IMG/VR virus record: IMGVR_UViG_3300038321_000292
Location: 7,506-71,505 of that record
Reading direction: 5' to 3' (one strand)
DNA: 64,000 nucleotides
From: a virus
Taxonomy: Duplodnaviria; Caudoviricetes
Shown here: piece after piece, positions 1,460 through 62,345 of the stretch
How positions within the stretch are numbered: position 1 is the first letter of the stretch
Layout of the letters: every line of letters begins with the position of its first letter
The notes under the pieces: model-generated
What the model saw: only the letters and a program-made list of their open reading frames with translations
Databases searched by the model: none
What the model was told of the DNA's origin: nothing
Made by a program: the position numbers and the translations under genes

Positions 1460-1840
1460 ATGAGTAAAGGTCAATTTGTATGTCCATACTGTGGAGAAAA
1501 ATTTACAATGTTTGAAGAACAAGCATACTGTCCAAAATGTGGACAACCATTTGATGCACAACACAGACCAATATATGATCAAGTAAGTACAAGTTGGGGT
1601 AATGCAGGAATAACCTTATTTAAAATATTTGGATACTTATTTTTATTTGTTTTTCTTGCAGTGTTCCTGAATGTGTTTGGAGTTATAATATTCTTTATAT
1701 TAGTTATAATATTCCATTATGCCGGTAAGAAATTAAGTGAACCTAATACTTATACTTGTCCTTATTGTGGTAAGCAGTTTAAAGGTCAAAAACTTAATTG
1801 TCCTTATTGTGGAGGATTAATAAGATATAATAAGAAATAG
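1460..1840 (+). CDS. Zinc-ribbon membrane protein
   Basis: Four CPxC motifs flanking a hydrophobic transmembrane stretch; RBS AAGGGGAAG. Confidence 0.8.
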   Translation: MSKGQFVCPYCGEKFTMFEEQAYCPKCGQPFDAQHRPIYDQVSTSWGNAGITLFKIFGYLFLFVFLAVFLNVFGVIIFFILVIIFHYAGKKLSEPNTYTCPYCGKQFKGQKLNCPYCGGLIRYNKK

Positions 1841-1924
1841 ATTATTTTTTTTACCATTAATCAAAAAGTATATATACTACTATAACACAACTATAATATG
1901 TAACATATATAGGGGATAAAAAAA

Positions 1925-2686
1925 ATGAAAATAGAAAAAATAATAGAAAAAGCAGGATTAGAAAAATTTGACTGGACAAAATTAGTTATCGGATTAGATA
2001 AAAGTAAACAAGGTGGATACTCAATTTTAGGAAACTTCACAAAAGACACAGACCTACAAGATGGATTATACTTATCTGTCGACAAAGGAAGCTATGATTA
2101 CTACTGTTTATACAAAGTTACAGATGATGATTTAAACATTATTAAAATTTTTGAGAATGATAAAAAAAGTTGGGCTAGACAATTTTGGTCTGACATAGAA
2201 GAAAATTTAGATTTAAGCATGGGTGAAACATTATTTAATGAGGTTGTAGAAAAAATAAGTGATGTTGAAGATTTAAAAGAATTAGTTAAAAGATTAAATT
2301 ATAAAATTGAAGAAAAAGAAAATAAGTTTAATGAAAAATTTGATTTAAATTATTATTTTAATGTAAAAGATTTAAATTCTAGTGATCTTGAAGGGATTGA
2401 AGAAGAACATGAAGATGAATTTAAACAAATAGAAAAATTAAATGGTGAAAGAAAAGAAATTGAAAAAAACAAAGCATTAATTGTATATGGTTATATGAAG
2501 AAATTTAGTTTCATGAAAATTCAAGAAAATTATGAAATTGATTTTCGTGAATGTGATTCTGATGACTTCAGACGATCACTAGGAAATCCTAGTGAATGGG
2601 AATATTATCGAATTGGGGGGTATGGGGCAGCTTTTCAACAAGATGATGAAAATAAAAAACTTAAAATTATATATCCATTTATTTAA
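1925..2686 (+). CDS. Hypothetical protein
   Basis: 253 aa ORF co-oriented with neighbours; acidic; no recognised motif. Confidence 0.7.
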   Translation: MKIEKIIEKAGLEKFDWTKLVIGLDKSKQGGYSILGNFTKDTDLQDGLYLSVDKGSYDYYCLYKVTDDDLNIIKIFENDKKSWARQFWSDIEENLDLSMGETLFNEVVEKISDVEDLKELVKRLNYKIEEKENKFNEKFDLNYYFNVKDLNSSDLEGIEEEHEDEFKQIEKLNGERKEIEKNKALIVYGYMKKFSFMKIQENYEIDFRECDSDDFRRSLGNPSEWEYYRIGGYGAAFQQDDENKKLKIIYPFI

Positions 2687-2719
2687 TTTAAATTTTTTTT
2701 TTAAGAGGAATGATGAAAA

Positions 2720-3187
2720 ATGTATGATAAAGTAACAGATTTAAAAAAATTGGATGAAAATACTTACAGTTCTGTAATATTAAATTTAGCATTACGCGAA
2801 TATGGAGAATTTGCAAGTGAAAAAGTAGCAGATTTAGAAAATCATGATATTAAAATTATTCAAGAAGGAGAAGGATTAAATTCATCTTTTAAAATAATTG
2901 GAGATAAAAAAGAGATACAAGCTGCATTAAATTATGAATTATTAAAAGATGCAATTTTATTAACTTTTTGTCCTAAAGATCCTGAAGAATTATTATATAC
3001 TGATAAATCTTTATATGGGGATTATGTTGTTAATTTTGATGAACCTACAAGTATAACTTTAAATAAGAAATTACACTTTAAAGAAATAACTTGCTTATCA
3101 TTCGATTTACATGCTTTATATTTAAGTGTAGATAACAAACTCATTTTTGAAATGAGTTTAAAATGGTTAAATGATGTTGAAAACTAA
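2720..3187 (+). CDS. Hypothetical protein
   Basis: 155 aa ORF with RBS; operonic. Confidence 0.7.
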   Translation: MYDKVTDLKKLDENTYSSVILNLALREYGEFASEKVADLENHDIKIIQEGEGLNSSFKIIGDKKEIQAALNYELLKDAILLTFCPKDPEELLYTDKSLYGDYVVNFDEPTSITLNKKLHFKEITCLSFDLHALYLSVDNKLIFEMSLKWLNDVEN

Positions 3188-4000
3188 ATGAGGGGAATAA
3201 TAATGATACAATATTTTATAGCAGTATTTAAAGATGAACATATAATGTTCAAAATTAACAGAGAAGAAGAGGACTCACAATTCTTCTTCTTAAACGATAA
3301 AGTTTTAAATTTAAATGAATTAGATATTAGTGAAGAATTTAAACAAAATTTTCCTACTGAAAATGAATTAAGATTTGAATTACTATTCAGAAATAAACTG
3401 AATGATTCATATAAAAAAAATGGGATTAAATTTATTAATATAGGAGAAAATAATATGGTAAGTTATGATTTAATTAAAGAAGAAATTTTAAATAAAGTAA
3501 CTCATGGGATACCTTTTAATCCTAATGAGAAAATTAAATTGTTTGAAAATAAAATAATAAGAATAAATGGGATAAGATTGATGAATGTAAAAATGTTAGT
3601 ATTGAATAGTACTGGATTACAATTATATTCAGATCCTAACTCATTAATAAGTGATTTCGTTAGTATTAAAAAAATATCTTCATTTAGAATAGATGATGAA
3701 GATATTGAAGTACGATATATGGGGAATAATGATGAATATCATTATGATTTAGTTATTAGTCGGAGTATTAATGAATTACTTAATACTTTTAGTTCAGAAA
3801 CAGATAAACCATTATTAAGTACAGGTAAAGCTGTTCAATGGTTTAAAGATGTAGGATACAATTTATCAATCGATAATGAAAATGATGACTATGAGGGAAT
3901 ATTTGAAGTGCCTTGTTATTCAGATGATACTTGCAATGATAAATTGAAAAGATTATATGATCTTAATAATGAAGTGTTAAATTTATTAAAACACTTCTAA
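3188..4000 (+). CDS. Hypothetical protein
   Basis: 270 aa ORF abutting the previous stop. Confidence 0.7.
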   Translation: MRGIIMIQYFIAVFKDEHIMFKINREEEDSQFFFLNDKVLNLNELDISEEFKQNFPTENELRFELLFRNKLNDSYKKNGIKFINIGENNMVSYDLIKEEILNKVTHGIPFNPNEKIKLFENKIIRINGIRLMNVKMLVLNSTGLQLYSDPNSLISDFVSIKKISSFRIDDEDIEVRYMGNNDEYHYDLVISRSINELLNTFSSETDKPLLSTGKAVQWFKDVGYNLSIDNENDDYEGIFEVPCYSDDTCNDKLKRLYDLNNEVLNLLKHF

Positions 4001-4008
4001 AAAGAGGA

Positions 4009-4467
4009 TTGAAAATTATGATTAATAAAAAGAGTACTATTCAATTAACAGATAGAACTAAAAAAAAATTAAATAGTAGAAAATTAACAGATGGAGAATC
4101 ATATGAAAACATAATATTAAGATTATTAGAAAAAACTGGAGAAGATAAAATGTTAGCGAATAATGGATTTAATGAATATAGTATAAATACTGATGAAATA
4201 ATAAGTGATATAAGAAAAGCTGCAAAAGATTTAAAAGAAAATGAGTTTTTACGATTAAACTTTTCAGCTTATGATTATACTGGAACACTTAACAAGTATA
4301 CTGATTGGGATGTTGATGTTGATGGTTTCCATACTGGAGAAGTTGAAACATTATATCATTATACTTCCTTAAAACCGGCAGATGAGGAGATATTAGAAGT
4401 AGAAATAGAAAATATTGATGGAGTAGATTGGACTAATAATACTGATGCTTCACCTGTCTGGTTATAA
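4009..4467 (+). CDS. Protein with N-terminal ribbon-helix-helix-like DNA-binding domain
   Basis: STIQLTDRTKKKLNSRK...ESYENIILRLLE matches the archaeal CopG/RHH-like pattern; acidic C-terminus. Confidence 0.6.
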   Translation: MKIMINKKSTIQLTDRTKKKLNSRKLTDGESYENIILRLLEKTGEDKMLANNGFNEYSINTDEIISDIRKAAKDLKENEFLRLNFSAYDYTGTLNKYTDWDVDVDGFHTGEVETLYHYTSLKPADEEILEVEIENIDGVDWTNNTDASPVWL

Positions 4468-4473
4468 AATTTT

Positions 4474-5844
4474 TTACTTTTTTTCATTTTTTTCTAATAA
4501 ATTCTTTAAAACTTTTGGATCAACATTACGTAAAATATCCATAGTTTCCTTTAAACTATTATCATGCTCTTTATCACGAGCCTCTAATTTCTTATTAACC
4601 TCATCTAAACGTTCTTCCATTTCACGATAATCCTTACTTTTAATATGATGAACCTCTGTATCTTGGAATGTTAATTCACTTAAAACAGTTAAATAAGCAT
4701 CCATTATAGTTTCTTTACTTAATTTAATATAATTCTTATCCGTACTCTTCTCATCAGCGTGCCCTTCCATACGATAAGCTAACCGTGTATTAACCCCATT
4801 ATTAGCAAGTACACTACTAAAATATCTACGCATGGAATGAGGATTTAATCTAGGAATATTCTGTAATTTTTCATCTAATGTTTCATGACTAATCTTTTTA
4901 TTCTCATAATCCTCATATAATTGTATTTGTATAATATCCTTTAATTTTGTATTCATATACCCGAATAAAGTATATAATCCTCGATAAGTATATTTAGCAT
5001 TAGTATTTTTAGTTGGGGAGAATAGTTTAGTTTTCTTATGTAAGTATCGGTCAGTACCATGTTTCTTATTATATTTTTCAAGTAACCTTTTTTTCCATTG
5101 AAGATATTCTAATAAATAATTTGATGATTCTGGACTGTTACAGGTTTGACATTTAATATTATAATTTTCAGTTTTAATTGGATAAAATTCCCAGTACCCT
5201 ATCATATCTTTTTGGGCTTTATTTAGGAAATCATCAACTTCTGTACAGTGATGAGAATCATAGGTTGCAATCATAAAGTCTTCAATTGTAAAATCCATTA
5301 TATCCCCAACACGTGCGCCTATAGAAGCCATGAAACTAAATAATGCTCTTGTTGTGAAGTTCCCTAATTCAATTGCTTTTGCTATCATGCTTTTAGGAAG
5401 TATTTCTAATTCTTTACTATCATCTTTGAAATCAGTTTTATCAGGTAATTCAAGATCATAGAATTTAAAGAATGAACGCATATATGTTACATATGTTTTT
5501 ACTGTGTTTTGTTTTATATTGCCTTTCCTCATGTAATCTATTTTATTTCTTTCAAAAATAATAAAATCATCGAACATATCATTTATTAAACTATCGTTAG
5601 GGTTGAATCTATCAATGTATAATTCTTCTTCTCCATTAATTATTTGTTTTATTATTCTGTCTTTTTGTAAATTTTTTAATATTGTTATTAATTCTGTGGG
5701 AGATTTTTCTATATAATTACAGAATTGATGTAAACTTATAGTGTATAATCTTTGGGTGGCAGGTTTTATTTGTTTTTTATTTACTAATTTTAAATATTTT
5801 TTATCTTTTTCTATGTCTTGTTTAGTAAATTTTTCTGGGGTCAT
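4474..5844 (-). CDS. int: Tyrosine integrase
   Basis: Catalytic motifs GARVGD (R), PIKT (K), HSMRR (HxxR), GH...KNY (H, Y); N-terminal SAM-like region and C-terminal coiled coil. Confidence 0.92.
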   Translation of the reverse strand: MTPEKFTKQDIEKDKKYLKLVNKKQIKPATQRLYTISLHQFCNYIEKSPTELITILKNLQKDRIIKQIINGEEELYIDRFNPNDSLINDMFDDFIIFERNKIDYMRKGNIKQNTVKTYVTYMRSFFKFYDLELPDKTDFKDDSKELEILPKSMIAKAIELGNFTTRALFSFMASIGARVGDIMDFTIEDFMIATYDSHHCTEVDDFLNKAQKDMIGYWEFYPIKTENYNIKCQTCNSPESSNYLLEYLQWKKRLLEKYNKKHGTDRYLHKKTKLFSPTKNTNAKYTYRGLYTLFGYMNTKLKDIIQIQLYEDYENKKISHETLDEKLQNIPRLNPHSMRRYFSSVLANNGVNTRLAYRMEGHADEKSTDKNYIKLSKETIMDAYLTVLSELTFQDTEVHHIKSKDYREMEERLDEVNKKLEARDKEHDNSLKETMDILRNVDPKVLKNLLEKNEKK

Positions 5845-10817: not shown

Positions 10818-11496
10818 ACTTTAAACTTATTTTGTGATTGGATGGGTTTAATCCATCACTTGTATGTATATATACTAAATTGTTTATAGTATCATAATAA
10901 TAACTGGAATCTGTTTTATCTACTTTGAATGCTCCTAGTACATTTTGGTATCCTGTGTTATTATCTTCTTCTGTTACTCCTATTATATTGTTTAGATTGG
11001 TTGTTTGGTAAGTGTTAACATATCCTTGGCTTTTTGTCCATCCTGTGCTAATGCTTAAAGTGTTTAATTTATATGTGTATACTATTGTGAATGTACTGGT
11101 AATTGGTATATCTATTTTTTCATGTACATCACGACTTATTAATACTCCATTACTGGTTGCTACTCCTATTTCAGTAGTACCATTTATACGGTTACTGTTG
11201 AATGTTGCTTTAAGTATTATTGAATTAGTACTTGAATCAGATGATAAGTTGGGTGTTGCACTGTTTCCTGTGAATAGTACATCATCTTTTCTTGGTAGAT
11301 TTGTACCGGTTCCAACTATAATGTTTTTAATTAAATCAACATCATTAGTTATCCATCGTTTAAGGAAGTAATCTACACCTGCACTTGTTATTAAGTTATG
11401 TTTTTTTAAGATTACAGTACTGTAATCATGAAACATTGTTGGAATATGAATAATATATTCATATTCTCCTGTAATATTTATTTTATCCATATCCAT
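10795..11496 (-). CDS. Tail collar/fibre-attachment-like protein
   Basis: HNLITSAG...IIVGTGT...TEIGV...LISR pattern typical of phage tail-collar fibre N-termini. Confidence 0.65.
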   Translation of the reverse strand: MDMDKINITGEYEYIIHIPTMFHDYSTVILKKHNLITSAGVDYFLKRWITNDVDLIKNIIVGTGTNLPRKDDVLFTGNSATPNLSSDSSTNSIILKATFNSNRINGTTEIGVATSNGVLISRDVHEKIDIPITSTFTIVYTYKLNTLSISTGWTKSQGYVNTYQTTNLNNIIGVTEEDNNTGYQNVLGAFKVDKTDSSYYYDTINNLVYIHTSDGLNPSNHKISLKYAEGTNE

Positions 11497-11524
11497 CTCA
11501 TTTTTTTAAAATTGTTTTTATTAT

Positions 11525-12118
11525 TCATAATTTCTTAATAGGATACTGTGTAGGTACAAATGTTTTAAGTGATGTCCAATAACTTCCAGGTTTAATAATA
11601 ATTTTTAAATAAATTGTACCATACATATTACTAACATCTATATTATTACTATCATACTTTCTTAACAATTCATTATTTGCACTATACATTTCATAGAAGC
11701 AACCTACAAGTTTACTTTCTAATGAAATTGTTTTAACAACTCCTAAATTTAATAATTGTGTTTTAGCAGTACAATTCAATTCCCCATTTGATTCAAGATT
11801 ACCTGAATTATTTATTACACCATTTTGTACATCTATTAAATCATTAGGGGTTATTGTTTGTATAAGATTTTGCACGAGACAATAATAATCACTTAAAACA
11901 TTTACTTTATTAGTATCTTTACTTGTATCTGTTTGGAATTTTATGAAGTTCTTTTGACTCATAGGAAGAGCACGTGATACTACTTCCTCAGCTTCAGTAG
12001 AAATTGGAATATGACGATTTTTTGGTATTTTATCATAGTTAATGTTTATATCATATACATTTGGATTCCAATTTTCTTTTGTATACATATATTTTTTAGG
12101 ACATGTTTGTTTGGTCAA
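11525..12118 (-). CDS. Hypothetical tail-module protein
   Basis: 197 aa ORF within the tail operon. Confidence 0.6.
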   Translation of the reverse strand: MTKQTCPKKYMYTKENWNPNVYDININYDKIPKNRHIPISTEAEEVVSRALPMSQKNFIKFQTDTSKDTNKVNVLSDYYCLVQNLIQTITPNDLIDVQNGVINNSGNLESNGELNCTAKTQLLNLGVVKTISLESKLVGCFYEMYSANNELLRKYDSNNIDVSNMYGTIYLKIIIKPGSYWTSLKTFVPTQYPIKKL

Positions 12119-20058: not shown

Positions 20059-21747
20059 TTATGTTTTTGTGATTGTAATGGTACTGGATACTTTACTTGT
20101 ATAAGTACTACCCCCTGCATAATATAATTGTAAACTATTTTCCCCTGTAAGTGTTGGTGTGTAAGTGTAGGTTATTGTTCCAGTTGTGTCACTTGTGAGG
20201 GTTGTTAATTTTTTATTGTTTTCTTTTAGGATTATACTTGCACTACTTATCACAGTATTGGTGTTAGTGGTTATTGTTCCAGTTATTATGGCTGTATCTG
20301 TGGTTAAACTGGTTTTATCTGTACTTATTTTTAATCTTACTGGTGTTTTACCAGTTGTTATACTTACAGTTACTGTGCTGGTTGTTATTGTATTATAATT
20401 TGTGGTTGCAGTACTTATTAATTTGTAAGTGGTATTTGCTGTTGGTTGTTGTGTGAAGTAAGCTTTTCCATTAGTATTTGTAGTAGTTGTTCCGAGTAAG
20501 GTATTGTTACTGTCGTATAGTTTTATTTCAAGATTGTTTATTGGTTGTTTCCATATGTCAAGGAATTGTCCATTTATTTCTATTTTTTCAGTATTTGTAG
20601 TACTTGTAGTACTAATGTTGATTGTTCCCGTAATATTTTTACTATCAGTTATATTATTACTTACTGTGTAACTTTGTAGTGTTCCATAAGTACTACTTGA
20701 TGGACTACTTGTATTCCAGTAACAATAAGTGATTGTTCCTGAATATGAACCGTTTACATAAATGTTTTGTGGGGTATTATTTTTAAATGAGGAGTAACTA
20801 ATATTATTATTACTATCATCATTGTAAACTCCACCACCCTCAGTTGAAGCATTATTACCTGAAAATGTACAACCAGTCACAGTATTTGAGGAATTGTTCA
20901 GAATAGCCCCACCAGAACTTGAAGCATTATTACTGAAAGTACAATCAGTCACAATATTTGAGAAACTGTTATAAATAGCCCCACCACCATAAGTTGAAGC
21001 ATTATTACTGAAAGTACAATCAGTCACCGTATTACTACTATTATTGTAAACTCCACCACCATAAGTTGAAGCATTATTACTGAAAGTACAATCAGTCACC
21101 GTATTACTACTATTATTGTAAACTCCACCACCATTATTTGAAGCATTATTACTGAAAGTACAATCAGTCACCGTATTACCACTACTATTGTAAACTCCAC
21201 CACCAGAAGTTGAAGCATTATTACCTGAAAATGTACAATCAGTCACCGTATTACTACTACCATTATTGCAAACTCCACCACCATTATTTGCATAACCATT
21301 TTGAAAAGTTAAACCCTGAAGTAAACAATGAACACCAGTAGGACTAACAAAACCACTACGATAAGTATCCTCACCATCAAACAAGGTTTTACCCTTAACA
21401 CCAAAAATCTTAACATTACCTCGTATTATAAGATTACAATTAACACCATCACCAGTATAAGTACCCTCCATAATTAACACGGATTCATAATCATTCATAA
21501 CACTTAAAGCTTTACTAACAGTTTTAAACGGTACTGTTTTACTTGTACCAGTATTAGTATCACTCCCTAAAGTATCACTAACATAATAATTATAAGTTTC
21601 AGGATAAACTACTCCTAAACCTTTAATCTTATTTGTAAGTGTAGTTAAACCCATAGTACTTGTTGCATCAGTTACACCTGCATCGTTAAGATTACTCACC
21701 ATAAGTCTTCTTAAAGTATTTATATTACTTAATAAACTCATATTCAA
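20059..21747 (-). CDS. Adhesin-like virion protein: parallel beta-helix with GGA(I/V)/FxxN repeats plus Ig-like C-terminal domains
   Basis: PFKTVSKAL N-terminal motif; repeated NTVTDCTFSNNAS..GGGVYN; Ig-like tail. Confidence 0.85.
   Translation of the reverse strand: MNMSLLSNINTLRRLMVSNLNDAGVTDATSTMGLTTLTNKIKGLGVVYPETYNYYVSDTLGSDTNTGTSKTVPFKTVSKALSVMNDYESVLIMEGTYTGDGVNCNLIIRGNVKIFGVKGKTLFDGEDTYRSGFVSPTGVHCLLQGLTFQNGYANNGGGVCNNGSSNTVTDCTFSGNNASTSGGGVYNSSGNTVTDCTFSNNASNNGGGVYNNSSNTVTDCTFSNNASTYGGGVYNNSSNTVTDCTFSNNASTYGGGAIYNSFSNIVTDCTFSNNASSSGGAILNNSSNTVTGCTFSGNNASTEGGGVYNDDSNNNISYSSFKNNTPQNIYVNGSYSGTITYCYWNTSSPSSSTYGTLQSYTVSNNITDSKNITGTINISTTSTTNTEKIEINGQFLDIWKQPINNLEIKLYDSNNTLLGTTTTNTNGKAYFTQQPTANTTYKLISTATTNYNTITTSTVTVSITTGKTPVRLKISTDKTSLTTDTAIITGTITTNTNTVISSASIILKENNKKLTTLTSDTTGTITYTYTPTLTGENSLQLYYAGGSTYTSKVSSTITITKT
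20821..21300. repeat. Coding tandem repeat, about 72 bp unit, 6-7 copies
   Basis: attattactgaaagtacaatcagtcac recurs at 21001 and 21073 (period 72); encodes the 24 aa unit NTVTDCTFSNNASTYGGGVYNNSS. Confidence 0.9.
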
Positions 21748-50724: not shown

Positions 50725-51453
50725 CTACGCTTCTATCCTAGGTGCAATGAGCATCATTACTTTTAAACCATAACCATTATCAAATTGTGCAGTTAAAGGC
50801 ATATCCTGACCCATAAATAATTTAACATCTTCTGATATGTTTAAACCAATAAGTTTCTTAACATTCTCTAATGCATATAAACTATCAACAGTCCCTTCTA
50901 CATGTTCTCCATGAATGAATTTACCAGTTATACTGTTAAACATTCCTTCACTATTATAACTGAAATAATCAGGATCAACTTTGAATAAGATTTTTTCTTC
51001 AACAATATTCACATCTTTTTCTGCTTCGATGAGAACTTTTAATGGTAATGTAATGTTTGTTGCATATTCTAATTCTGGAGGTTCTGCTTCTTTATAATCT
51101 TTACTTACACCATTAATATTAAATGTTCGAGTTGTTTTTTCATCCCCTTCAATTATTAAGTTTAGGTTTGCTTCATTGGCTGCTATTGTTAATTTATCAT
51201 TGTTACCGATTCTTTTAAGTATGTTGCTTAATTGTTCTGTGTCTATTATTACTTGGAATGGTTCTGTTAAACTATATGTTGTGAATAATTCTAAATCTAA
51301 ATGTGCTTGTATGAAGTTTATATGGCTTTTGTCTAGGGCACTGAATAATATTCCAGTATCATTTACATTTAATCTGATTTCATCAACTATTTTACTTACT
51401 CCTATGAATAAGTTTTTAAATTCTTTTGTATCATCTACTTCGCATTTTAACAA
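50725..51453 (-). CDS. pcn: PCNA sliding clamp
   Basis: ALDKSHINFI, IDTEQLSNILKR, GQDMPL, LIAPRIE; 242 aa. Confidence 0.93.
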   Translation of the reverse strand: MLKCEVDDTKEFKNLFIGVSKIVDEIRLNVNDTGILFSALDKSHINFIQAHLDLELFTTYSLTEPFQVIIDTEQLSNILKRIGNNDKLTIAANEANLNLIIEGDEKTTRTFNINGVSKDYKEAEPPELEYATNITLPLKVLIEAEKDVNIVEEKILFKVDPDYFSYNSEGMFNSITGKFIHGEHVEGTVDSLYALENVKKLIGLNISEDVKLFMGQDMPLTAQFDNGYGLKVMMLIAPRIEA

Positions 51454-51563: not shown

Positions 51564-52535
51564 ATGATTAATAAAAAAAACAAATACAAAGCATACAATG
51601 AAATCGAACTACCCCAATTCCATGGTAACCATATAGTACAATTAAAAAAAGTATTCCCATTCACTCAAATGATTGATGAATACATTATTAATATTAAAAT
51701 CTTAAATTACTCACAAAATACTATACGCACTTATCGTAGCATTCTAAAAAGATTCTTCAAATATTTAAACACTCAAGATGTTTATGATGAAAATAGTTTC
51801 ATTAAATGTTTCATGAAATACATTGTAAATAAAAAAGAAAAGGATCATGTTAGTACAAATTACACTTACCTCATAACAGCAGTGTTGAAGAATTTTTGTA
51901 ACTATCATAAACTTAGTTGGATGAAAGAATTAAAATCTCCTAAAAGAACAAAGAGTTTACCTCGTGCTTTAACTGAAGATGAAGTTCATAGATTATTGAA
52001 AGCTACTCATCATAAACGTACTGATAGTAAAACTGTTAAGAATAAGAAATTAAAGGATAGATTGATTTTAACTATGCTTTATAGTACTGGTTTACGTGTT
52101 AATGAATTATTAACTTTACGTATTCAACAAATTGATTTTAATAATCGTACAATCCGTGTACGTGGTAAAGGTGATAAGGATAGGATTGTTTTATTTGATA
52201 AAGATACTGGTGTGTTGATTAAAAAGTTTTTATTAATACATAATGGTGTTAGTGATTATCTTTTTAATACTCGGACTGGTGAGCATTTACAAAGTAGATA
52301 TATACAGGGGGGTATAAAAGAATATGCTAAAGAGGCATGTATTACTAAACGTGTTACTCCCCATGTTTTAAGACATTCATTTGCAACACACTTACTTAAT
52401 AATGGTGTTAATATAAGGATTATCCAATCATTACTCGGACATTCCAGTCTCTCAACTACTCAGGTTTATACTGAATTATGTGTTGATGTAATGAAAGATG
52501 CTTATGATGAAGCTCGAAAGAGGGAGTTAAATTAA
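51564..52535 (+). CDS. xerA: XerA/XerC-like tyrosine recombinase
   Basis: TGLRVNEL, GKGDKDRIV, TPHVLRHSFATHLL, LLGHSSLSTTQVY. Confidence 0.93.
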   Translation: MINKKNKYKAYNEIELPQFHGNHIVQLKKVFPFTQMIDEYIINIKILNYSQNTIRTYRSILKRFFKYLNTQDVYDENSFIKCFMKYIVNKKEKDHVSTNYTYLITAVLKNFCNYHKLSWMKELKSPKRTKSLPRALTEDEVHRLLKATHHKRTDSKTVKNKKLKDRLILTMLYSTGLRVNELLTLRIQQIDFNNRTIRVRGKGDKDRIVLFDKDTGVLIKKFLLIHNGVSDYLFNTRTGEHLQSRYIQGGIKEYAKEACITKRVTPHVLRHSFATHLLNNGVNIRIIQSLLGHSSLSTTQVYTELCVDVMKDAYDEARKRELN

Positions 52536-54373: not shown

Positions 54374-55027
54374 TTATTTTATCACCTTTTTTGCTTCTTC
54401 TAAATCAGTACTGTAAATATGAGCAGAAATACTGTGAACAGTTATCTCTTCTACTGTTGTGTTGGTTTTCTTCGCTACATATTGGGCTAAATAAGTTAAA
54501 CCTACTATATTTGGATACCATGCACCGTAGATGTCATGACTTCTCCATAAAGCAGTTGTAAGTAACTGATTATCTCTTATCTTGAAATCAACAAGCATTA
54601 AACAAGGTACTTCTTCTTTTACAGTGTCATCAACAGGACTCCAAGTAACACTTATTGCTCTTCTAGATTCACTACAATTATTCAATCTATCAATACTTAC
54701 TTGAATTTGGTCTATTCGGTCAAACCATGCTCTTAAACGATTACCATAAGTATAAATAAACCCATTTCGGTTTTTATCAATTAACTCTTTACAATATCTC
54801 TCTAACCTTTCACCCTCCCAAAAAGTAGGAAAATCAGGTTTCACTAACTCATAAACAGGTACAGGAATTGGAGAATAAGGAATAGGAGATTGAATAGTAG
54901 TAACAACATTCAAGCATTCTAATGTTTCACTACCCCGTTCATCCTTAACTTCCACGCCTTTAGAAAAAACTAAACCAACTAATTCCTGATAAGCACCACT
55001 AATACTACTTGTAACAACATTAAACAT
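54374..55027 (-). CDS. thyA: Thymidylate synthase (archaeal ThyA type)
   Basis: YTYGNRL, SRRAI, VPCL (catalytic Cys), WRSHD..GAWYPN, SAHIY. Confidence 0.9.
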   Translation of the reverse strand: MFNVVTSSISGAYQELVGLVFSKGVEVKDERGSETLECLNVVTTIQSPIPYSPIPVPVYELVKPDFPTFWEGERLERYCKELIDKNRNGFIYTYGNRLRAWFDRIDQIQVSIDRLNNCSESRRAISVTWSPVDDTVKEEVPCLMLVDFKIRDNQLLTTALWRSHDIYGAWYPNIVGLTYLAQYVAKKTNTTVEEITVHSISAHIYSTDLEEAKKVIK

Positions 55028-55083
55028 TCAATCATCACAACCATAAACTAATTCATTTAAAAAATCTTTAGATAAATTCATAA

Positions 55084-55533
55084 TTACTCCTTTTCAAGAT
55101 AAGATTTTGTAATTCCAGTTTGTCCCTGATAATGATTACCACACTCACCATACAATTTAATAGGAACTTCATCCAATTCCTCAAGACATAACTGACAAAT
55201 ACCCATACCATGCTTAAGTATCAAATCTTCATCATGACAATTAAATAATTCCAAAGTAATATTCCCTTCAAATCCTGGATCAATATATCCAGCTGTTAAG
55301 TGAATTAATAAACCTAACCTACCAAGACTAGATTTACCTTCAACCCTACCAGAATATTCTGGTGGTATTGTAACATATTCAATTGTACTAGCTAATTTTT
55401 TAGTTAAAGGTGGTATTATTATATCCTCATTTAACCGTAAATCAACACTAGCAGGTTGTACTTGCTCTATACTATAATCATCAAGCAAACCTTCCTCACA
55501 TTTCTCAACCAAACTTTGATAACAAAGAATCAT
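55084..55533 (-). CDS. dcd: dCTP deaminase
   Basis: QVQPASVDLRL, EGKSSLGRLGL, AGYIDPGFEGNITLELFN, YQGQ. Confidence 0.92.
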   Translation of the reverse strand: MILCYQSLVEKCEEGLLDDYSIEQVQPASVDLRLNEDIIIPPLTKKLASTIEYVTIPPEYSGRVEGKSSLGRLGLLIHLTAGYIDPGFEGNITLELFNCHDEDLILKHGMGICQLCLEELDEVPIKLYGECGNHYQGQTGITKSYLEKE

Positions 55534-57801: not shown

Positions 57802-58131
57802 TCAATCCTTCACTAAATTAAATTCAATACAATAAACCATACTATCAGGGGTTAAAGAATAATAATCCATTAAAACATTCATCAACTCCTCTTTACGATT
57901 ATAACCCTCACGTTGAGCATCACTATCACTTAAATATTTAAACTTCTTTTCAACAATCCTATCCACATAAATATGTAAATAAAAAGGAATAATGTAATCA
58001 TCATCAACAAACACAGCACGAACCACCATACCATCAGTTAAACCAGTTTTAAGATGGTCTCGTGTTGTTTGTGTTTTAACTCCTTTCTGAATCATACCAT
58101 AAAATTTCTTATCAAATTTTAACCTAATCAT
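57802..58131 (-). CDS. ASCH-domain protein
   Basis: LKFDKKFYGMIQKGVKTQTTR (GxKxxTxR), DAQREGY, VYCIEF. Confidence 0.85.
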   Translation of the reverse strand: MIRLKFDKKFYGMIQKGVKTQTTRDHLKTGLTDGMVVRAVFVDDDYIIPFYLHIYVDRIVEKKFKYLSDSDAQREGYNRKEELMNVLMDYYSLTPDSMVYCIEFNLVKD

Positions 58132-58565
58132 ACACTCACCTTACGACCTAACCAAATAATTTCTCCATCAACACGCTCATCTAAACTTTCCATAGCATCA
58201 TAATCCCAACCACACATAATCAACTTATCACGTTCATCTAATGCAGATTTTAAGGTTTTGAATTGTCCAAAATTATAATTATACCCTTTAATCTTTTTTT
58301 CAATAATAAAAAAAGAACCAGTGTAAAAAATATATTTAGGTAAATTCTGTTTACAGATTTTAACAGGATCATTACGAGGCCAACCTAAATTTATTAATCT
58401 ATCCCTCTCCATTACTGCTTCCACAATACTATGAAACCTACCATAATAATGTCCTTTATATCTTAACTCTACAGTTGTACTGTTAATATAAGTAACATAT
58501 AATGGTAAATCATGCTGACACCATTTTTCCCCCAATAAAATTTCACCTATGATTCTAAAAAACAA
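58128..58565 (-). CDS. Tandem AP2-like DNA-binding domain protein
   Basis: Two repeats: YYGRFHSIVEAVMERDRL...GW and NFGQFKTLKSALDERDKL...GW. Confidence 0.7.
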   Translation of the reverse strand: MFFRIIGEILLGEKWCQHDLPLYVTYINSTTVELRYKGHYYGRFHSIVEAVMERDRLINLGWPRNDPVKICKQNLPKYIFYTGSFFIIEKKIKGYNYNFGQFKTLKSALDERDKLIMCGWDYDAMESLDERVDGEIIWLGRKVSV

Positions 58566-58683
58566 TTTTTTTAATTACTCCAAGATTAGATTACATTCTA
58601 TTATACTACTAAAAAAAGTAAGAATAGGAAAGTAAAAAATATAAAATTAAATATCCCCTACCTTTCCTAATCTTATGAAAAAA

Positions 58684-58878
58684 TTATTTATTTCTTTTTT
58701 TACCCATATTCAAATGGCTTTGTCGTCTAGCTCTCGTTTTATGATTCGCAATACGTTGTTGTGAAATATTCTTACTTTTCACATCACATCTTCTAATCAT
58801 TAAACTAGGTAATGACAAATTCATCTTATCACATGTTGCTAATATACTTCTCACCTCCTGGAAACTAATTCCTTCCAT
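58684..58878 (-). CDS. Small basic protein overlapping the cysH-like stop
   Basis: 64 aa, Arg/Lys-rich C-terminus. Confidence 0.5.
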   Translation of the reverse strand: MEGISFQEVRSILATCDKMNLSLPSLMIRRCDVKSKNISQQRIANHKTRARRQSHLNMGKKRNK

Positions 58879-59612
58879 TCTTCCTGATTAACTTCTTCAT
58901 TACGTTCACTATTAAAGAATATTCCCTCAAAATAATATTGCCCTCCAACTGCCAGGTTATTCTCATTATAATTACTTGTGAATCGTACTTTATCCCAACC
59001 ATATAAAGGGCCCATAACATCATATTGAGGATTATAAAACAAATCCTCTGTAATAATATAACTCCAAACATCATCAACAGTTAAATGTCGAATAGGGAAA
59101 GTAACCATACGATTCCCTTCATTTCTTATTAAAGGACCTTTTACACGATGTTTACGAGTAATGCTTTCTCCTCCACGAATACCAAGCACTTCTAAATCAC
59201 AATCCCATTTCTCCATGCACTCAAAAAGTAAAGGGAAATAATCTCTACAATTATAAACCCCATTCTCTTTTATTGGTAAATTCATATTATGAATATTGGT
59301 TGCTCCTGTTGATTCTGCACTTTTAATCACATTCTTAACAGTTTTAATTGAAGCATGAATCTGTTCTGCATTATAACTATAACTTGGAACATAATAGAAT
59401 ACTGGTAAGGTTGGATCTTCTTTACAAAATAAATTTAATAATACTAAACTATCCTTCCCTCCACTGAATTCTATTACAGGATTATAATACGAATTTAATA
59501 TGGTTTGAATATTTTCTTTTGCTTCTTTTAACCTATTCTTATATTCATCATGCTTTGTATGTAATTCAAAACCTCGACGTGTTCGTCTTGGCATATTATT
59601 ATCTTGATGCAT
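58851..59612 (-). CDS. cysH: CysH/PAPS-reductase-like PP-loop protein of the type IV-B locus
   Basis: FSGGKDS PP-loop, GIRGGES..R, PIRHLTVDDVWSYI, NPQYD. Confidence 0.88.
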   Translation of the reverse strand: MHQDNNMPRRTRRGFELHTKHDEYKNRLKEAKENIQTILNSYYNPVIEFSGGKDSLVLLNLFCKEDPTLPVFYYVPSYSYNAEQIHASIKTVKNVIKSAESTGATNIHNMNLPIKENGVYNCRDYFPLLFECMEKWDCDLEVLGIRGGESITRKHRVKGPLIRNEGNRMVTFPIRHLTVDDVWSYIITEDLFYNPQYDVMGPLYGWDKVRFTSNYNENNLAVGGQYYFEGIFFNSERNEEVNQEEWKELVSRR

Positions 59613-60356
59613 TTACACTACACTTATCTGTGATTCTGGAACATAACACATACACATATCCCCTTTAAACCAGTATGGTGGTTTGTAGGATTGTTTCTCA
59701 AAACACATTCCAGGAGTTATTGGAATCTTCATACTGGTAGGTAATGGTCGCATAAGTTTCCCATCTTTGAAAAAACTATAATCTTCATCAGCGTTTTCGA
59801 TTTTGAAATCTTTGATATGCCCTCCTCCAATACTTGACTTTTTACCCAAATGTGTTAAATTTGGTAATAAATATTCTAATGATTCCTTATCACCATTACA
59901 ATAAAAAGTAACTGTATCTGATAGTAATGCCGGTAAATTTATCATAAATCCTTTAAAGTAACCAGAACCAACTCTAACTTTTTTATACTTCTTAGAATTA
60001 ACACAACCTAACTCTTTATCACTAAATCGTTTATAAATAGTGTCTTTATATAATTTGGCTTGATTAAAAATCCCAACACTACTATGAAAAACATCTCCTG
60101 TTTTCTTTAAAGGTAATCTTAAGTCACGAGTATCAACAACAACTTCACTTGGCAAAATATAGAATAATTCATCAAGAGCATCTCGCAAACAAAGATAACT
60201 TAATATACTATCAAAATTCAGGAAAGGAGAAGTAATATAGATTGGAGAATCTATATTAAATGTAACCTTTAATGGAGTATAATCTGTTCCAGTTTCATAA
60301 TCAAGGATCTTATCAAAAATTTCATCCATTACTTCACTATTACTTCCTACTTCCAT
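59613..60356 (-). CDS. csf3: Csf3 (Cas5-group RAMP)
   Basis: PLKVTFNIDSPI, FDSILSY, Gly-rich LGKKSSIGGG, RPLP and PPYW. Confidence 0.85.
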   Translation of the reverse strand: MEVGSNSEVMDEIFDKILDYETGTDYTPLKVTFNIDSPIYITSPFLNFDSILSYLCLRDALDELFYILPSEVVVDTRDLRLPLKKTGDVFHSSVGIFNQAKLYKDTIYKRFSDKELGCVNSKKYKKVRVGSGYFKGFMINLPALLSDTVTFYCNGDKESLEYLLPNLTHLGKKSSIGGGHIKDFKIENADEDYSFFKDGKLMRPLPTSMKIPITPGMCFEKQSYKPPYWFKGDMCMCYVPESQISVV

Positions 60357-61210
60357 GTTCCCACCAATTCATCTAATAATTTTATCATCTCTTCTTTGTT
60401 ATCATTTACATAGTCACGATAAGCTGTATCAGTTGCCCCTTCGAGTGTAGGATAATCAAATTTCATTTTACCATAACCAGTAGCACCTTTACCACCTAAA
60501 TATGGTCTTTCTTTTAAAAGGTTAACTGCATTCACGAAACAAGCCTTTTCAACAGGATTCGCATCTTCAAGGACGAATTCATGAGTGAACATTGCTCCTC
60601 TAATAATAGTTTCAAATTCATACATCATTTGAGTGGATTGTTCTTTCTCTTTCTTATCATCATCATTTGCAGGTTTACTTTCTTTTAAATCATCTAATCT
60701 TGTACCGAAATCAGAAGCTTTCAAATTATATGCTCCAAAACTAGTATCATACTCATCAGAAATATAATCAGCAGTTTCCTTACAAACAAGATTACCAAGA
60801 CCTACTTTTAATTTGCCTTGAATCATCTGATTACCAAGTGCACTTCCAAGTAGGCTTATAGGAGGTATTAATTCACGTAAACGTTGTTTAAGCTTTAAAT
60901 CTATAGCTCCTTTATCAGCACTACTTCCTGCTTCAAGCATACCCCCAGTAAAAAGGAAATGATAAACTTTCATTGAGTCTAATTGGTAATCAAGTAAATC
61001 CAAATACTCTTGCATCATTAAACGTCTAAGTTTCCCCCGAATAGCATTACCATGAATTGCAGGTACCTTATCAATTCCCTTTTCCCCACTTTCATTTTTA
61101 ATCACAGTATCTAATCGTAGTATAAGTTTTGTTGTACCATAATCCTCGTTGCTTCCATGATGTAATGGTTCAAGACATGTCATATTTCCTTTAAATGTTT
61201 CAGTTATCAT
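60347..61210 (-). CDS. csf2: Csf2 (Cas7-group backbone RAMP)
   Basis: TCLEPLHHG, VPAIHGNAIRGKLRR, PPISLLG, QMMYEFETI, Gly-rich LGGKGATGYG. Confidence 0.92.
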   Translation of the reverse strand: MITETFKGNMTCLEPLHHGSNEDYGTTKLILRLDTVIKNESGEKGIDKVPAIHGNAIRGKLRRLMMQEYLDLLDYQLDSMKVYHFLFTGGMLEAGSSADKGAIDLKLKQRLRELIPPISLLGSALGNQMIQGKLKVGLGNLVCKETADYISDEYDTSFGAYNLKASDFGTRLDDLKESKPANDDDKKEKEQSTQMMYEFETIIRGAMFTHEFVLEDANPVEKACFVNAVNLLKERPYLGGKGATGYGKMKFDYPTLEGATDTAYRDYVNDNKEEMIKLLDELVGTWK

Positions 61211-61231
61211 ATATCAATCCTCTCCTTTTAA

Positions 61232-61615
61232 TTATAATGTTTTTTGCCCATTAGCTGCTAGTTTTCTATTTTCTTTTATTTCATCAACATAATCAAGTGC
61301 AAGATTTGCAATGTATGTTGTTTCCTTTCTTAATAATCTCATCACAACTTCGCGGTTTACATCTAAAAATTTTAATGCTTCTGTTTCTTCAGGTCTAACA
61401 AAATCCACTCCACATTTATGTATGAACACATCAAGGAACTCCTTAAAATTTGGTGCAGTACTACTTGCATTGATACGATCTACAAAGAATTTATGTGCAC
61501 TTTTAACTCCCACTTTTCTCCATGGGATTTTAACATATACTTCACCTAAAACATAGGCTAGTTTATTCTCAATTTCCATTTCAAATCGTTCTTGTTCTGT
61601 TATTTCATCTTTCAT
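61232..61615 (-). CDS. cas11: Cas11-like small subunit
   Basis: 127 aa all-helical ORF between csf1 and csf2, the IV-B position. Confidence 0.75.
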   Translation of the reverse strand: MKDEITEQERFEMEIENKLAYVLGEVYVKIPWRKVGVKSAHKFFVDRINASSTAPNFKEFLDVFIHKCGVDFVRPEETEALKFLDVNREVVMRLLRKETTYIANLALDYVDEIKENRKLAANGQKTL

Positions 61616-61648
61616 GCTATTCTAACCTCTTATTAATTATATTATAAC

Positions 61649-62284
61649 TTAATCTGCTATGTATAAGGCTAAATCATATATTGGGTTGCCCACATAACTT
61701 TTAACTTTTTTTAAAATATTTCTTGCTTCAATGTTACTAAATTCTTCTACAAGTTTACGATAATTGTACATTTCAAAATGTCCTGATTCTAAATCTTTTT
61801 TACTGATTTTTAAATCACGTAAACTTTTAATAAACTCATATAAACTTTTTAGATTTTCAAGATTACATTCTATAATGTCATAATCTTTTAAAATTTTAAT
61901 ATTATTCTTTGTGCTTTGATTATAAACTAGATTCATACGAATCCAACCTATTTTTTGCCAAGTGTCTGTTAAGTATAAGTAGAATGGTTTATCAGGTAAG
62001 TTAAAGATTATATCTTTAGCTTCCTTTTTCTTAAACTTCACAAACTCATCATTTGATAAGTAATACATTGTACGACGGTATTCATTACTATTATCTAATA
62101 AATAATGGCATTCTGGACAAATCACATCACCTGTAGATACGTAATCTGCAGTACTGAAGTTTCCACCAAACTTTTTCTTGAAACCAGTGGTAGTGTGTTT
62201 TCCACACATGCAACAAGTACCCTCAAGATCATTAGTTTCTGGAATGATGTTTCGTACTTTACATAATGTTTCACTGAAAGTCAA
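61649..62284 (-). CDS. csf1: Csf1 (reduced Cas8-like large subunit)
   Basis: CCMCG...ICPEC Zn-finger, PFYLYL.D.WQKIGW; first gene of the RAMP operon. Confidence 0.82.
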   Translation of the reverse strand: MTFSETLCKVRNIIPETNDLEGTCCMCGKHTTTGFKKKFGGNFSTADYVSTGDVICPECHYLLDNSNEYRRTMYYLSNDEFVKFKKKEAKDIIFNLPDKPFYLYLTDTWQKIGWIRMNLVYNQSTKNNIKILKDYDIIECNLENLKSLYEFIKSLRDLKISKKDLESGHFEMYNYRKLVEEFSNIEARNILKKVKSYVGNPIYDLALYIAD

Positions 62285-62345
62285 TCATATTCCCCTCCTT
62301 TCTAAAATTATTATAATAATTATTTTATTCACAATATCAGGGAAT

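What the first reader, a model, noticed from the sequence alone, without database searches (positions are those of the whole stretch)
58851..62284. Array-less type IV-B CRISPR-Cas effector operon carried by a methanogen virus
Seen: five tightly coupled ORFs with Zn-finger Csf1, helical Cas11, Cas7-type Csf2 (LEPLHHG, GNAIRGKLRR, LGGKGATGYG), Cas5-type Csf3 and a PP-loop CysH-like protein, embedded among viral early genes. No repeat-spacer array, cas6, cas1/2/4 or DinG is visible in the 64 kb. Established: this gene order defines subtype IV-B, which lacks arrays and a nuclease, is mostly reported on plasmids and prophages, and has no settled function. Inference: here it would act early in infection of an archaeal host, either sequestering host type I/III crRNAs (anti-CRISPR sponge) or using host or viral RNAs to target the CysH-like enzyme.
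Basis: partly seen in the sequence, partly recalled or inferred. Interest (0 to 1): 0.9.

Follow-up and report, generated by a model that had tools for sequence, protein, structure and literature searches.

The report
Array-less type IV-B Cas cassette, methanogen virus
A tailed virus of gut or rumen-type methanogens carries a complete five-gene type IV-B CRISPR-Cas set with no CRISPR array. It is a further example of a known system whose function is still unknown, and it is useful mainly because its closest viral relatives carry the same set plus a crRNA-cutting enzyme (Cas6).

Summary
Five tightly packed minus-strand genes at 58851-62284 encode Csf1, Cas11, Csf2 (Cas7), Csf3 (Cas5) and a PP-loop CysH-like enzyme. 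Profile E-values range from 1e-24 to 3e-70.

The 71.5-kb record is a tailed virus with terminase, portal, capsid, baseplate, integrases and a pseudomurein-binding lysin, so the host is a Methanobacteriales methanogen. I found no array, cas6, helicase, HD nuclease or adaptation gene in the record, which is estimated at about 70% complete.

This is a standard subtype IV-B architecture. It has been published for other archaeal viruses (Bathyarchaeia Fuxivirus, a Methanoperedens virus). This scan has already noted it in at least 19 other genomes, including methanogen viruses.

New here:
- The cassette is the best conserved block between this virus and its relatives (55-67% identity, against 28-53% for structural genes).
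- Most close relatives carry host-like cas6 genes of at least two unrelated types, yet have no array even in complete genomes.
- This virus is a natural cas6-less variant.

That pattern favours, but does not prove, loading of host crRNAs supplied in trans. The function remains untested. It is a new member of a known kind, of modest interest.

The parts
61649..62284 (-). csf1: small Zn-finger large subunit (Cas8-like), 211 aa, TTG start
   Evidence: PADLOC Csf1_0_IV 1.2e-33. NCBIfam TIGR03114 5.6e-06, below its cutoff. CxxC...CxxC cysteines C24/C27/C56/C59 are conserved in 17 relatives.
61232..61615 (-). cas11: helical small subunit, 127 aa
   Evidence: PADLOC Cas11_0_IV 1.4e-24. The AF2 model has pLDDT 87 and is all-helical. 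Its best structural match is Cas11 of the type IV-B complex, 7jhy_g: Z 9.3, rmsd 3.7 A, 112 residues aligned; the next hit scores Z 5.1.
60347..61210 (-). csf2: Cas7 backbone subunit, 287 aa
   Evidence: PADLOC Csf2_0_IV 3e-70. Pfam RAMPs 28.5 bits, above the 22.1-bit cutoff. PDB matches: 11fs_C type IV-C Cas7 5.9e-14, 7jhy_e IV-B Csf2 2.5e-08, IV-A Csf2 2.4e-04. All 17 family-invariant residues are kept.
59613..60356 (-). csf3: Cas5 subunit, 247 aa, overlapping csf2 by 10 nt
   Evidence: PADLOC Csf3_0_IV 4.7e-55. NCBIfam TIGR03116 3e-21, below its cutoff. 25 invariant columns across 15 relatives.
58851..59612 (-). cysH-like (CasCysH) PP-loop ATP alpha-hydrolase or adenylyltransferase-type enzyme, 253 aa
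   Evidence: Pfam PAPS_reduct 1.8e-11. SGGKDS (S50-S55) is invariant and no cysteine is conserved across 18 homologues. The AF2 model (pLDDT 82.7) matches PAPS/APS reductases, FAD synthase and TtuA at TM about 0.55. Homologues at 28-58% identity lie next to csf genes in the related loci.
58684..58878 (-). 64-aa ORF overlapping the cysH 3' end; doubtful gene
   Evidence: Listed. It has no homologue in any related locus. Probably not part of the system.
58566..58683 (-). T-rich intergenic stretch after the cassette; likely operon end and next promoter (inference)
   Evidence: The sequence shows several oligo-T runs. No test of termination was possible.
62285..62345 (-). short AT-rich leader with a GGAGGGG ribosome-binding site before csf1
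   Evidence: Sequence. Promoter function was not tested.

Best explanation
This is an intact subtype IV-B CRISPR-Cas effector cassette (csf1-cas11-csf2-csf3 plus a CasCysH-type enzyme). It sits in the replication and nucleotide-metabolism module of a temperate tailed virus of pseudomurein-walled methanogens (Methanobacteriaceae). By homology to the solved Mycobacterium IV-B complex, Csf2 and Cas11 should form a helical filament on an RNA of about 55-60 nt, capped by Csf3 and Csf1. There is no nuclease or helicase. The only enzyme is the PP-loop CysH-like protein, which keeps the ATP-binding SGGKDS loop but lacks the redox cysteine of true PAPS reductases. It therefore most likely adenylates or otherwise ATP-activates a substrate rather than reducing sulfate. 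The virus has no array, so the RNA must be supplied in trans. My preferred mechanism is inferred, not shown: the complex loads host CRISPR RNAs, cut here by the host's own Cas6. This serves the virus either by draining guides from host type I/III effectors or by re-using host guides against competing elements, with the CysH-like enzyme acting on whatever the complex binds.
For: Identity:
- Csf profile matches with E-values from 1e-24 to 3e-70.
- The Cas11 fold best matches 7jhy_g at Z 9.3.
- Csf2 matches type IV Cas7 structures.
- The nearest non-methanogen representatives keep the order csf2-csf3-PAPS_reduct.

Intactness and selection:
- All family-invariant residues are kept in Csf1, Csf2, Csf3 and CysH.
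- The cassette is the best conserved block between this virus and G001/G004: 55-67% amino-acid identity, against 36% for capsid, 36-44% for portal and 53% for terminase.

Virus and host:
- Structural genes, integrases and a pseudomurein-binding lysin are present.
- Csf2 relatives occur in Methanobrevibacter, Methanosphaera and Methanobacterium records.

Link to crRNAs:
- 7 of the 13 related methanogen-type loci examined carry cas6 beside the cassette.
- These cas6 genes fall into at least two types only 23-29% identical to each other, in different positions.
- One type is 40-51% identical to host chromosomal Cas6 genes; repeat arrays adjoin these genes in L044 and L045.
- No array exists in the four full cas6-bearing viral contigs, two of them rated 100% complete.
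- On the Csf2 tree the window sits inside a clade (support 1.0) with cas6-positive relatives.
Against: - The only biochemical study of a IV-B complex found heterogeneous non-CRISPR RNA bound, even when a type I-E array and Cas6 were co-expressed (PMC7937560).
- Pinilla-Redondo et al. judged a sponge too complex to be a likely anti-CRISPR and found IV-B negatively correlated with other CRISPR types (PMC7038947).
- This virus itself has no cas6, so the cas6 argument is by relatives only.
- No host-like solitary repeat was found in the viral genomes.
- The record may be incomplete.
Confidence: 0.45

Rival explanations
1. Guide-independent RNA coating. The Csf filament assembles on RNAs without sequence preference (host or viral transcripts, or small RNAs). 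The CysH-like enzyme then modifies the bound RNA or a nearby nucleic acid in an ATP-dependent way. The function would be unrelated to CRISPR RNAs, for example translation or RNA-stability control, or an epigenetic mark.
For: The JS623 complex bound heterogeneous RNA of uniform length (PMC7937560). This virus and the outgroup loci have no cas6 and no array. PP-loop relatives by fold include the tRNA thiolases TtuA and NcsA and FMN adenylyltransferase, all nucleotide or nucleobase-activating enzymes. Relatives insert DNA methylases or IbrA/IbrB-like enzymes between csf3 and cysH, which hints at nucleic-acid modification.
Against: It does not explain why cas6 genes of unrelated types are repeatedly found beside the cassette in array-less viruses. 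The heterologous E. coli result may simply reflect the absence of the natural RNA (caveat stated in PMC8175902).
Confidence: 0.3
2. Ordinary crRNA-guided system whose array, and perhaps cas6, lies in the missing part of the genome.
For: The record is linear and rated about 70% complete, and csf1 is 1.7 kb from the contig end. A Bathyarchaeia virus IV-B locus does have a mini-array (PMC10848311).
Against: The two complete relatives G003 and G004, and also G001 and G002, have no array anywhere. In relative L050 the genes upstream of csf1 run 940-aa protein ... ERCC4 ... csf1. They match the left end of this record at 57% and 55% identity, so the two contig ends probably adjoin with nothing cas-like between them.
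Confidence: 0.05
3. Decaying or non-functional passenger cassette.
For: It has lost the cas6, methylase and 235-aa genes present in its closest relatives. NCBIfam scores fall below the curated cutoffs.
Against: All five frames are open and tightly coupled, with ribosome-binding sites. Every family-invariant residue is retained. The block is more conserved than the capsid and portal genes.
Confidence: 0.03

Closest known systems
Subtype IV-B CRISPR-Cas of Mycobacterium sp. JS623 megaplasmid (Csf complex, PDB 7JHY; PMC7937560)
   Same: Same gene set (csf1, cas11, csf2, csf3, cysH-like), with no array, cas6, helicase or nuclease. The Cas11 fold matches 7jhy_g at Z 9.3. Csf2 matches 7jhy_e at 2.5e-08.
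   Different: The carrier is an archaeal tailed virus rather than an actinobacterial plasmid. The sequences are very distant, with NCBIfam equivalog scores far below cutoff.
Type IV-B loci of archaeal viruses: Bathyarchaeia 'Fuxivirus' (PMC10848311) and Methanoperedens virus Mp_virus_41kb (bioRxiv 10.1101/2023.08.02.551345)
   Same: The same five-gene IV-B cassette on an archaeal virus, with the same proposed counter-defence role.
   Different: Fuxivirus has a two-repeat mini-array; none was found here. The host order differs (Methanobacteriales).
cas6-bearing IV-B cassettes of related methanogen viruses (IMG/VR loci L001, L004, L005, L007; MAG locus L013; ENA locus L050; earlier scan notes e1-5854505 and e1-5797773)
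   Same: Same viral lineage and synteny. Csf1-Csf3 are 50-72% identical. None has an array.
   Different: The relatives add cas6, and some also add a DNA methylase or IbrA/IbrB-like genes. The window has none of these, and csf3 abuts cysH directly. Its cysH is of the L001/L007 type (55% identity), not the L050 type (28%).
Archaeal type IV-C1 (Thermococcus/Pyrococcus; PDB 11fs 'Cas7c'; PMC13676074)
   Same: Its Cas7 is the closest solved sequence to this Csf2 (5.9e-14). Both systems have Cas11, and both belong to archaeal lineages.
   Different: IV-C has a Cas10-like HD large subunit and is chromosomal. Here the large subunit is a 211-aa Csf1, a CysH-like gene is present, and no HD nuclease model matched.

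Membership tests
Subtype IV-B CRISPR-Cas | Csf1, a small zinc-finger large subunit | tested here: met
   PADLOC Csf1_0_IV 1.2e-33. CxxC...CxxC is conserved. NCBIfam TIGR03114 reaches only 26 bits against a 140-bit cutoff.
Subtype IV-B CRISPR-Cas | Cas11 small subunit (present in IV-B and IV-C, absent in IV-A) | tested here: met
   PADLOC Cas11_0_IV 1.4e-24. The AF2 model matches 7jhy_g at Z 9.3, rmsd 3.7 A over 112 residues, 4 Z units above the next hit.
Subtype IV-B CRISPR-Cas | Csf2 (Cas7) and Csf3 (Cas5) of the type IV lineage | tested here: met
   Csf2_0_IV 3e-70 and Csf3_0_IV 4.7e-55. Type III Csm3 models score no better than 2e-11. PDB hits are the type IV Cas7s.
Subtype IV-B CRISPR-Cas | Adjacent cysH-like gene with a PP-loop (SGGxDS) and no catalytic cysteine | tested here: met
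   Pfam PAPS_reduct 1.8e-11. SGGKDS is invariant and no cysteine is conserved. The fold is that of the PAPS reductase / adenine-nucleotide alpha-hydrolase class.
Subtype IV-B CRISPR-Cas | No DinG or RecD helicase and no Cas10-like HD subunit | tested here: met
   A PADLOC scan of the other 83 ORFs of the 71.5-kb record found no such model at E<=1e-4. This holds for the record only (about 70% complete).
Subtype IV-B CRISPR-Cas | No CRISPR array, cas6 or adaptation genes | tested here: met
   This holds for the record as held. Complete relatives also lack arrays, but most of them do carry cas6.
Subtype IV-B CRISPR-Cas | Assembly of a Csf2/Cas11 filament on RNA | not testable with these tools
   Needs purification.
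Assimilatory PAPS/APS reductase (true CysH) | C-terminal redox-active cysteine (ECGLH-type motif) | tested here: not met
   No conserved cysteine in the 18-sequence alignment, and the C-terminus is variable. NCBIfam cysH and APS-reductase models score 14 bits against cutoffs of 165-235.
Anti-CRISPR (crRNA sponge) | Inhibition of host CRISPR interference through crRNA sequestration | not testable with these tools
   There is only indirect support, from cas6 in array-less relatives.

The most novel reading that the evidence does not exclude
The methanogen-virus IV-B clade captures host CRISPR RNAs. Viruses have repeatedly acquired host-type cas6 genes to feed host pre-crRNA into their own Csf complex. 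This cas6-less virus does the same using the host's Cas6. The natural series cas6-plus / cas6-minus / IbrAB-plus among close relatives would then be a ready-made genetic dissection of what type IV-B does, which has been an open question since the subtype was defined.
Probability: 0.3. Interest if true: 0.75.

Novelty: new member of a known kind. Interest (0 to 1): 0.35.

Why it matters
Type IV-B is the one widespread CRISPR-Cas subtype with no established function (PMC13676074, 2026). This locus does not change that on its own. It does belong to a large family in viruses of gut and rumen methanogens: more than 170 Csf2 clusters at 90% identity.

Within that family the cassette is better conserved than the virion genes, and close relatives differ only in accessory genes (cas6 of two or more origins, DNA methylase, IbrA/IbrB-like enzymes). 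That gives a compact comparative system for testing whether IV-B complexes load host crRNAs and what the CysH-like enzyme does. These viruses infect organisms relevant to methane emission and gut ecology.

Tried and rejected
- Phage database searches (blastn, and tblastn with Csf2) found nothing. They therefore gave no named relative.
- CRISPR arrays were sought with TRF, Rfam, exact 20-nt and 3-mismatch 24-nt repeat scans, and a local repeat search. The only periodic hit is a coding 72-nt repeat in a beta-helix protein (window 20821-21284).
- Two host repeats taken from arrays beside host cas6 (L044, L045) were searched in five viral genomes with up to 7 mismatches. There were no hits.
- Neither Cas11 nor the CysH-like protein has a sequence match in the PDB. 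Foldseek on the Cas11 model gave no significant hit. Only the VIA re-alignment singled out 7jhy_g.
- The first tree run with treekit was killed by the sandbox. It was redone with MAFFT and FastTree.
- A Cas7 phylogeny against labelled IV-A/B/C references was not possible, because the reference sequences are not retrievable here. Classification rests on gene content, as in PMC7038947.
- The Csf2 'catalytic loop' acidic position (Asp42 of JS623) could not be assigned with confidence. The GG-DE motif is acidic in most relatives and reads NED here.
- Medvedeva et al. 2023 (methanogen virus compendium) is not held. I could not check whether it already lists this cassette.
- The small paralogous ORFs upstream of csf1, and the 64-aa ORF after cysH, have no counterparts in related loci. 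I rejected them as parts of the system.
Full report
**Observation**

The five ORFs are real and lie on the minus strand:

| Gene | Window coordinates | Length |
|---|---|---|
| csf1 | 61649-62284 | 211 aa |
| cas11 | 61232-61615 | 127 aa |
| csf2 | 60347-61210 | 287 aa |
| csf3 | 59613-60356 | 247 aa |
| cysH-like | 58851-59612 | 253 aa |

They are tightly packed. The gaps are 33 and 21 nt, csf2 and csf3 overlap by 10 nt, and the csf3 stop abuts the cysH start as TAAATG. Purine-rich ribosome-binding sites precede csf1, cas11, csf2 and csf3.

**Identity**

PADLOC profiles match strongly:
- Csf1_0_IV 1.2e-33
- Cas11_0_IV 1.4e-24
- Csf2_0_IV 3e-70
- Csf3_0_IV 4.7e-55

Type III Csm3 models score no better than 2e-11 against the Cas7 protein, so it belongs with Csf rather than type I/III RAMPs. 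Pfam gives RAMPs above its cutoff and PAPS_reduct at 1.8e-11. The NCBIfam Csf equivalogs match but fall far below their curated cutoffs, so this is a divergent branch. PHROGs holds unnamed families for Csf2 and Csf3.

Against solved structures, Csf2 matches three type IV Cas7 proteins:
- the archaeal type IV-C Cas7 (11fs) at 5.9e-14
- the Mycobacterium IV-B Csf2 (7jhy) at 2.5e-08
- a IV-A Csf2 at 2.4e-04

Cas11 has no sequence hit in the PDB. Its AlphaFold model (pLDDT 87, all helical) aligns best to Cas11 of the IV-B complex, 7jhy_g. The match is Z 9.3, rmsd 3.7 A over 112 residues, against Z 5.1 for the next hit, itself a Cas11. Foldseek alone was not significant.

Csf1 keeps a CxxC...CxxC zinc-ribbon signature across 17 relatives.

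The CysH-like protein keeps an invariant SGGKDS PP-loop and has no conserved cysteine. Its model (pLDDT 82.7) resembles PAPS/APS reductases, FAD synthase / FMN adenylyltransferase, CysD and the tRNA thiolase TtuA at TM about 0.55. This is the published description of CasCysH: an ATP alpha-hydrolase-type enzyme that cannot perform sulfonucleotide reduction (PMC8175902).

**What is absent**

The whole record is one 71,505-bp contig, and the window is its bases 7506-71505.
- TRF, Rfam and my own exact and mismatch-tolerant scans find no repeat-spacer array.
- A PADLOC scan of the other 83 ORFs finds no cas6, cas1/2/4, DinG, RecD or Cas10-HD model.
- A Cas6 query finds nothing.

The gene content is therefore the textbook IV-B architecture, as defined in PMC7038947 and PMC8175902.

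Two caveats apply. IMG/VR classes the record as linear and CheckV rates it about 70% complete. Also, csf1 lies 1.7 kb from the right end.

Against a hidden array just outside the record, consider the closest long relative, L050. There the genes upstream of csf1 run 940-aa protein, HNH, ERCC4, two unknown genes, then csf1. The 941-aa and ERCC4 genes at the left end of this record match them at 57% and 55% identity. The two ends of the record therefore probably adjoin, with nothing cas-like between them.

**Carrier and host**

The record encodes these virion and lifestyle genes:
- large terminase, portal, MuF-like protein, prohead protease, HK97-type capsid and baseplate J
- two tyrosine recombinases
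- a 606-aa lysin with pseudomurein-binding repeats

Pseudomurein points to Methanobacteriales. GC content is 30%. Csf2 relatives at 54-84% identity include proteins named from Methanobrevibacter gottschalkii, Methanosphaera cuniculi and Methanobacterium MAGs. 'Methanogen virus' is supported.

The cassette sits among replication and nucleotide-metabolism genes on the same strand: thymidylate-synthase-like, dCTP deaminase/dUTPase, HNH, ASCH, PCNA and ERCC4.

**Relatives**

Csf2 has 174 database hits. All 120 listed are at least 54% identical. A library-wide search finds 1095 relatives. The nearest non-methanogen representatives keep the order csf2-csf3-PAPS_reduct.

Ten IMG/VR loci and eight genome loci keep the order csf1-cas11-csf2-csf3-(inserts)-cysH. 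Only 5 of 201 sampled Methanobacteriaceae species genomes carry the cassette, so it is mainly a feature of the viruses.

1. **The cassette is the best conserved block.** Between this virus and its relatives G001 and G004, the cassette proteins are 55-67% identical. The figures for other shared genes are 36% for capsid, 36-44% for portal, 53% for terminase and 28-45% for tail genes. Every family-invariant residue is retained. It is not a decaying passenger.

2. **Most close relatives carry cas6.** Seven of the 13 related methanogen-type loci examined have a cas6 gene beside the cassette: L001, L004, L005, L007, L013, L050 and the P0004 contig.
   - These are strong Cas6 matches, for example Cas6b at 1.3e-74 and the type IV-associated Cas6_7_IV at 5.9e-58.
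   - They fall into at least two groups only 23-29% identical to each other, and they occupy different positions.
   - One group is 40-51% identical to chromosomal Cas6 genes of the host family; repeat arrays adjoin these genes in L044 and L045.
   - Even so, the full contigs of four cas6-bearing viruses, two of them rated 100% complete, contain no array. They also contain no copy of two sampled host repeats.
   - IV-B with cas6 is a recorded rarity: 12 instances in PMC7038947.

3. **The window is a derived minimal form.** On a Csf2 tree the window sits in a clade (support 1.0) with L050 and P0004, both of which read csf3-methylase-unknown-cysH-cas6. The window's bare five-gene state, with csf3 abutting cysH, therefore looks like a derived minimal form. 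Its cysH is 55% identical to the L001/L007 type but only 28% to the L050 type. The region downstream of csf3 has evidently been exchanged.

Other relatives (L002, L003, L014) insert three genes between csf3 and cysH: a PAPS_reduct+DUF3440 protein, a GNAT and a ParB_N protein. An earlier scan note calls this arrangement IbrA/IbrB-like.

**Mechanism**

What homology shows: a Csf2/Cas11 filament on RNA, capped by Csf3 and Csf1, with no nuclease or helicase, plus a PP-loop ATP-using enzyme.

What I infer: the RNA comes in trans. Array-less viruses have repeatedly acquired host-type cas6 genes beside this cassette. For that reason I favour loading of host CRISPR RNAs (confidence about 0.45). In this virus they would be cut by the host's own Cas6. 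The outcome would be guide depletion (a sponge) or re-use of host guides against competitors, and I cannot separate the two.

The main rival (about 0.3) is guide-independent RNA binding coupled to an ATP-dependent modification. It is supported by the heterogeneous RNA found in the JS623 complex (PMC7937560) and by the methylase and IbrAB inserts in relatives.

An array hidden in missing sequence (0.05) and a dead relic (0.03) are both unlikely.

**Comparison and novelty**

The closest known systems are:
- the Mycobacterium sp. JS623 IV-B complex (PDB 7JHY)
- the IV-B loci reported on a Bathyarchaeia virus, which has a mini-array (PMC10848311)
- the IV-B locus on a Methanoperedens virus (bioRxiv 10.1101/2023.08.02.551345)

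IV-B in archaea and prophages was already noted in PMC7038947. Its function was still called unclear in 2026 (PMC13676074).

This scan has already recorded virus-borne IV-B cassettes in at least 19 other genomes, including methanogen viruses with cas6. I could not check the methanogen-virus compendium of 2023 because it is not held. Two archaeal-virome papers that are held do not mention it.

**Verdict**

The function is open. This is a new member of a known kind. Its value lies in the comparative series it belongs to, not in the locus itself.

Noticed in passing
L001:9575-10270, L007:9572-10270, L004:10472-11185, L005:10617-11393, L013:8379-9107, L050:10697-11404: Relatives of this virus carry cas6 beside the IV-B cassette. 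The cas6 genes are of at least two types only 23-29% identical to each other, one of them 40-51% identical to host chromosomal Cas6. None of the four full viral contigs examined has a CRISPR array.
   Followed up: partly
L002:9609-12608, L003:9656-12641, L014:11582-14564: Between csf3 and a short cysH-like gene these relatives insert a 429-aa PAPS_reduct+DUF3440 protein, a GNAT acetyltransferase and a ParB_N protein (an IbrA/IbrB-like set).
   Followed up: partly
L050:8616-9946; L011:7174-7872; L013:6347-7677: N6/N4 DNA methyltransferase genes are inserted between csf3 and cysH in several relatives. In L050 and the P0004 contig a conserved unknown gene of 191-235 aa follows.
   Followed up: no
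window 58851-62284 compared with the whole genome: The Csf cassette is the most conserved block between this virus and relatives G001/G004 (55-67% amino-acid identity). That is higher than capsid (36%), portal (36-44%) and terminase (53%).
   Followed up: yes
P0211, P0216, P0220, P0224 and about 25 others: Many distant Csf2 relatives are 400-500 aa long and carry an extra N-terminal region of about 170-220 aa before the Cas7 domain. In L048 such a gene is followed by csf3. The extension was not identified.
   Followed up: no
L015:30-3529 and L016:1794-5293: Contigs binned as Synergistaceae and Patescibacteria carry a rearranged cassette, cas11-csf2-csf3-small ORF-cysH-csf1, with csf1 last. Csf2 is 49% identical to the window's.
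   Followed up: no
window 58128-58565; genome 255-800 (L019); L002:5104-6990; L003:6436-6957; L050:5292-5867 and 11391-11771: An unnamed protein family with an internally repeated motif (no Pfam hit for the window copy) lies directly next to the cassette in several relatives. It has two copies in this genome.
   Followed up: no
window 54374-55533: A truncated-looking thymidylate-synthase-like gene (217 aa, matching only the C-terminal half of the profile) sits next to a dCTP deaminase/dUTPase. This is a possible route to a modified pyrimidine in the viral DNA.
   Followed up: no
window 4474-5844 and 51564-52535: Two tyrosine recombinase genes: a 456-aa one next to the lysin, and a 323-aa XerC/D-like one on the opposite strand inside the replication module.
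   Followed up: no
window 1460-4467: The only plus-strand gene block, with the lowest GC of the record (about 24%). It lies beside the integrase and may be a moron or cargo region.
   Followed up: no
window 20821-21284: About six copies of a 72-nt tandem repeat inside a 562-aa beta-helix / Chlamydia-PMP-repeat protein (a likely receptor-binding or adhesin-like tail protein). This is the only periodic signal that array scans pick up.
   Followed up: partly
window 61649-61690 (Csf1 C-terminus): The Csf1 C-terminus carries a conserved NPxWxLAxYL-type motif across relatives. By eye it is not a canonical PCNA-binding box, although the virus encodes its own PCNA (50725-51453).
   Followed up: no
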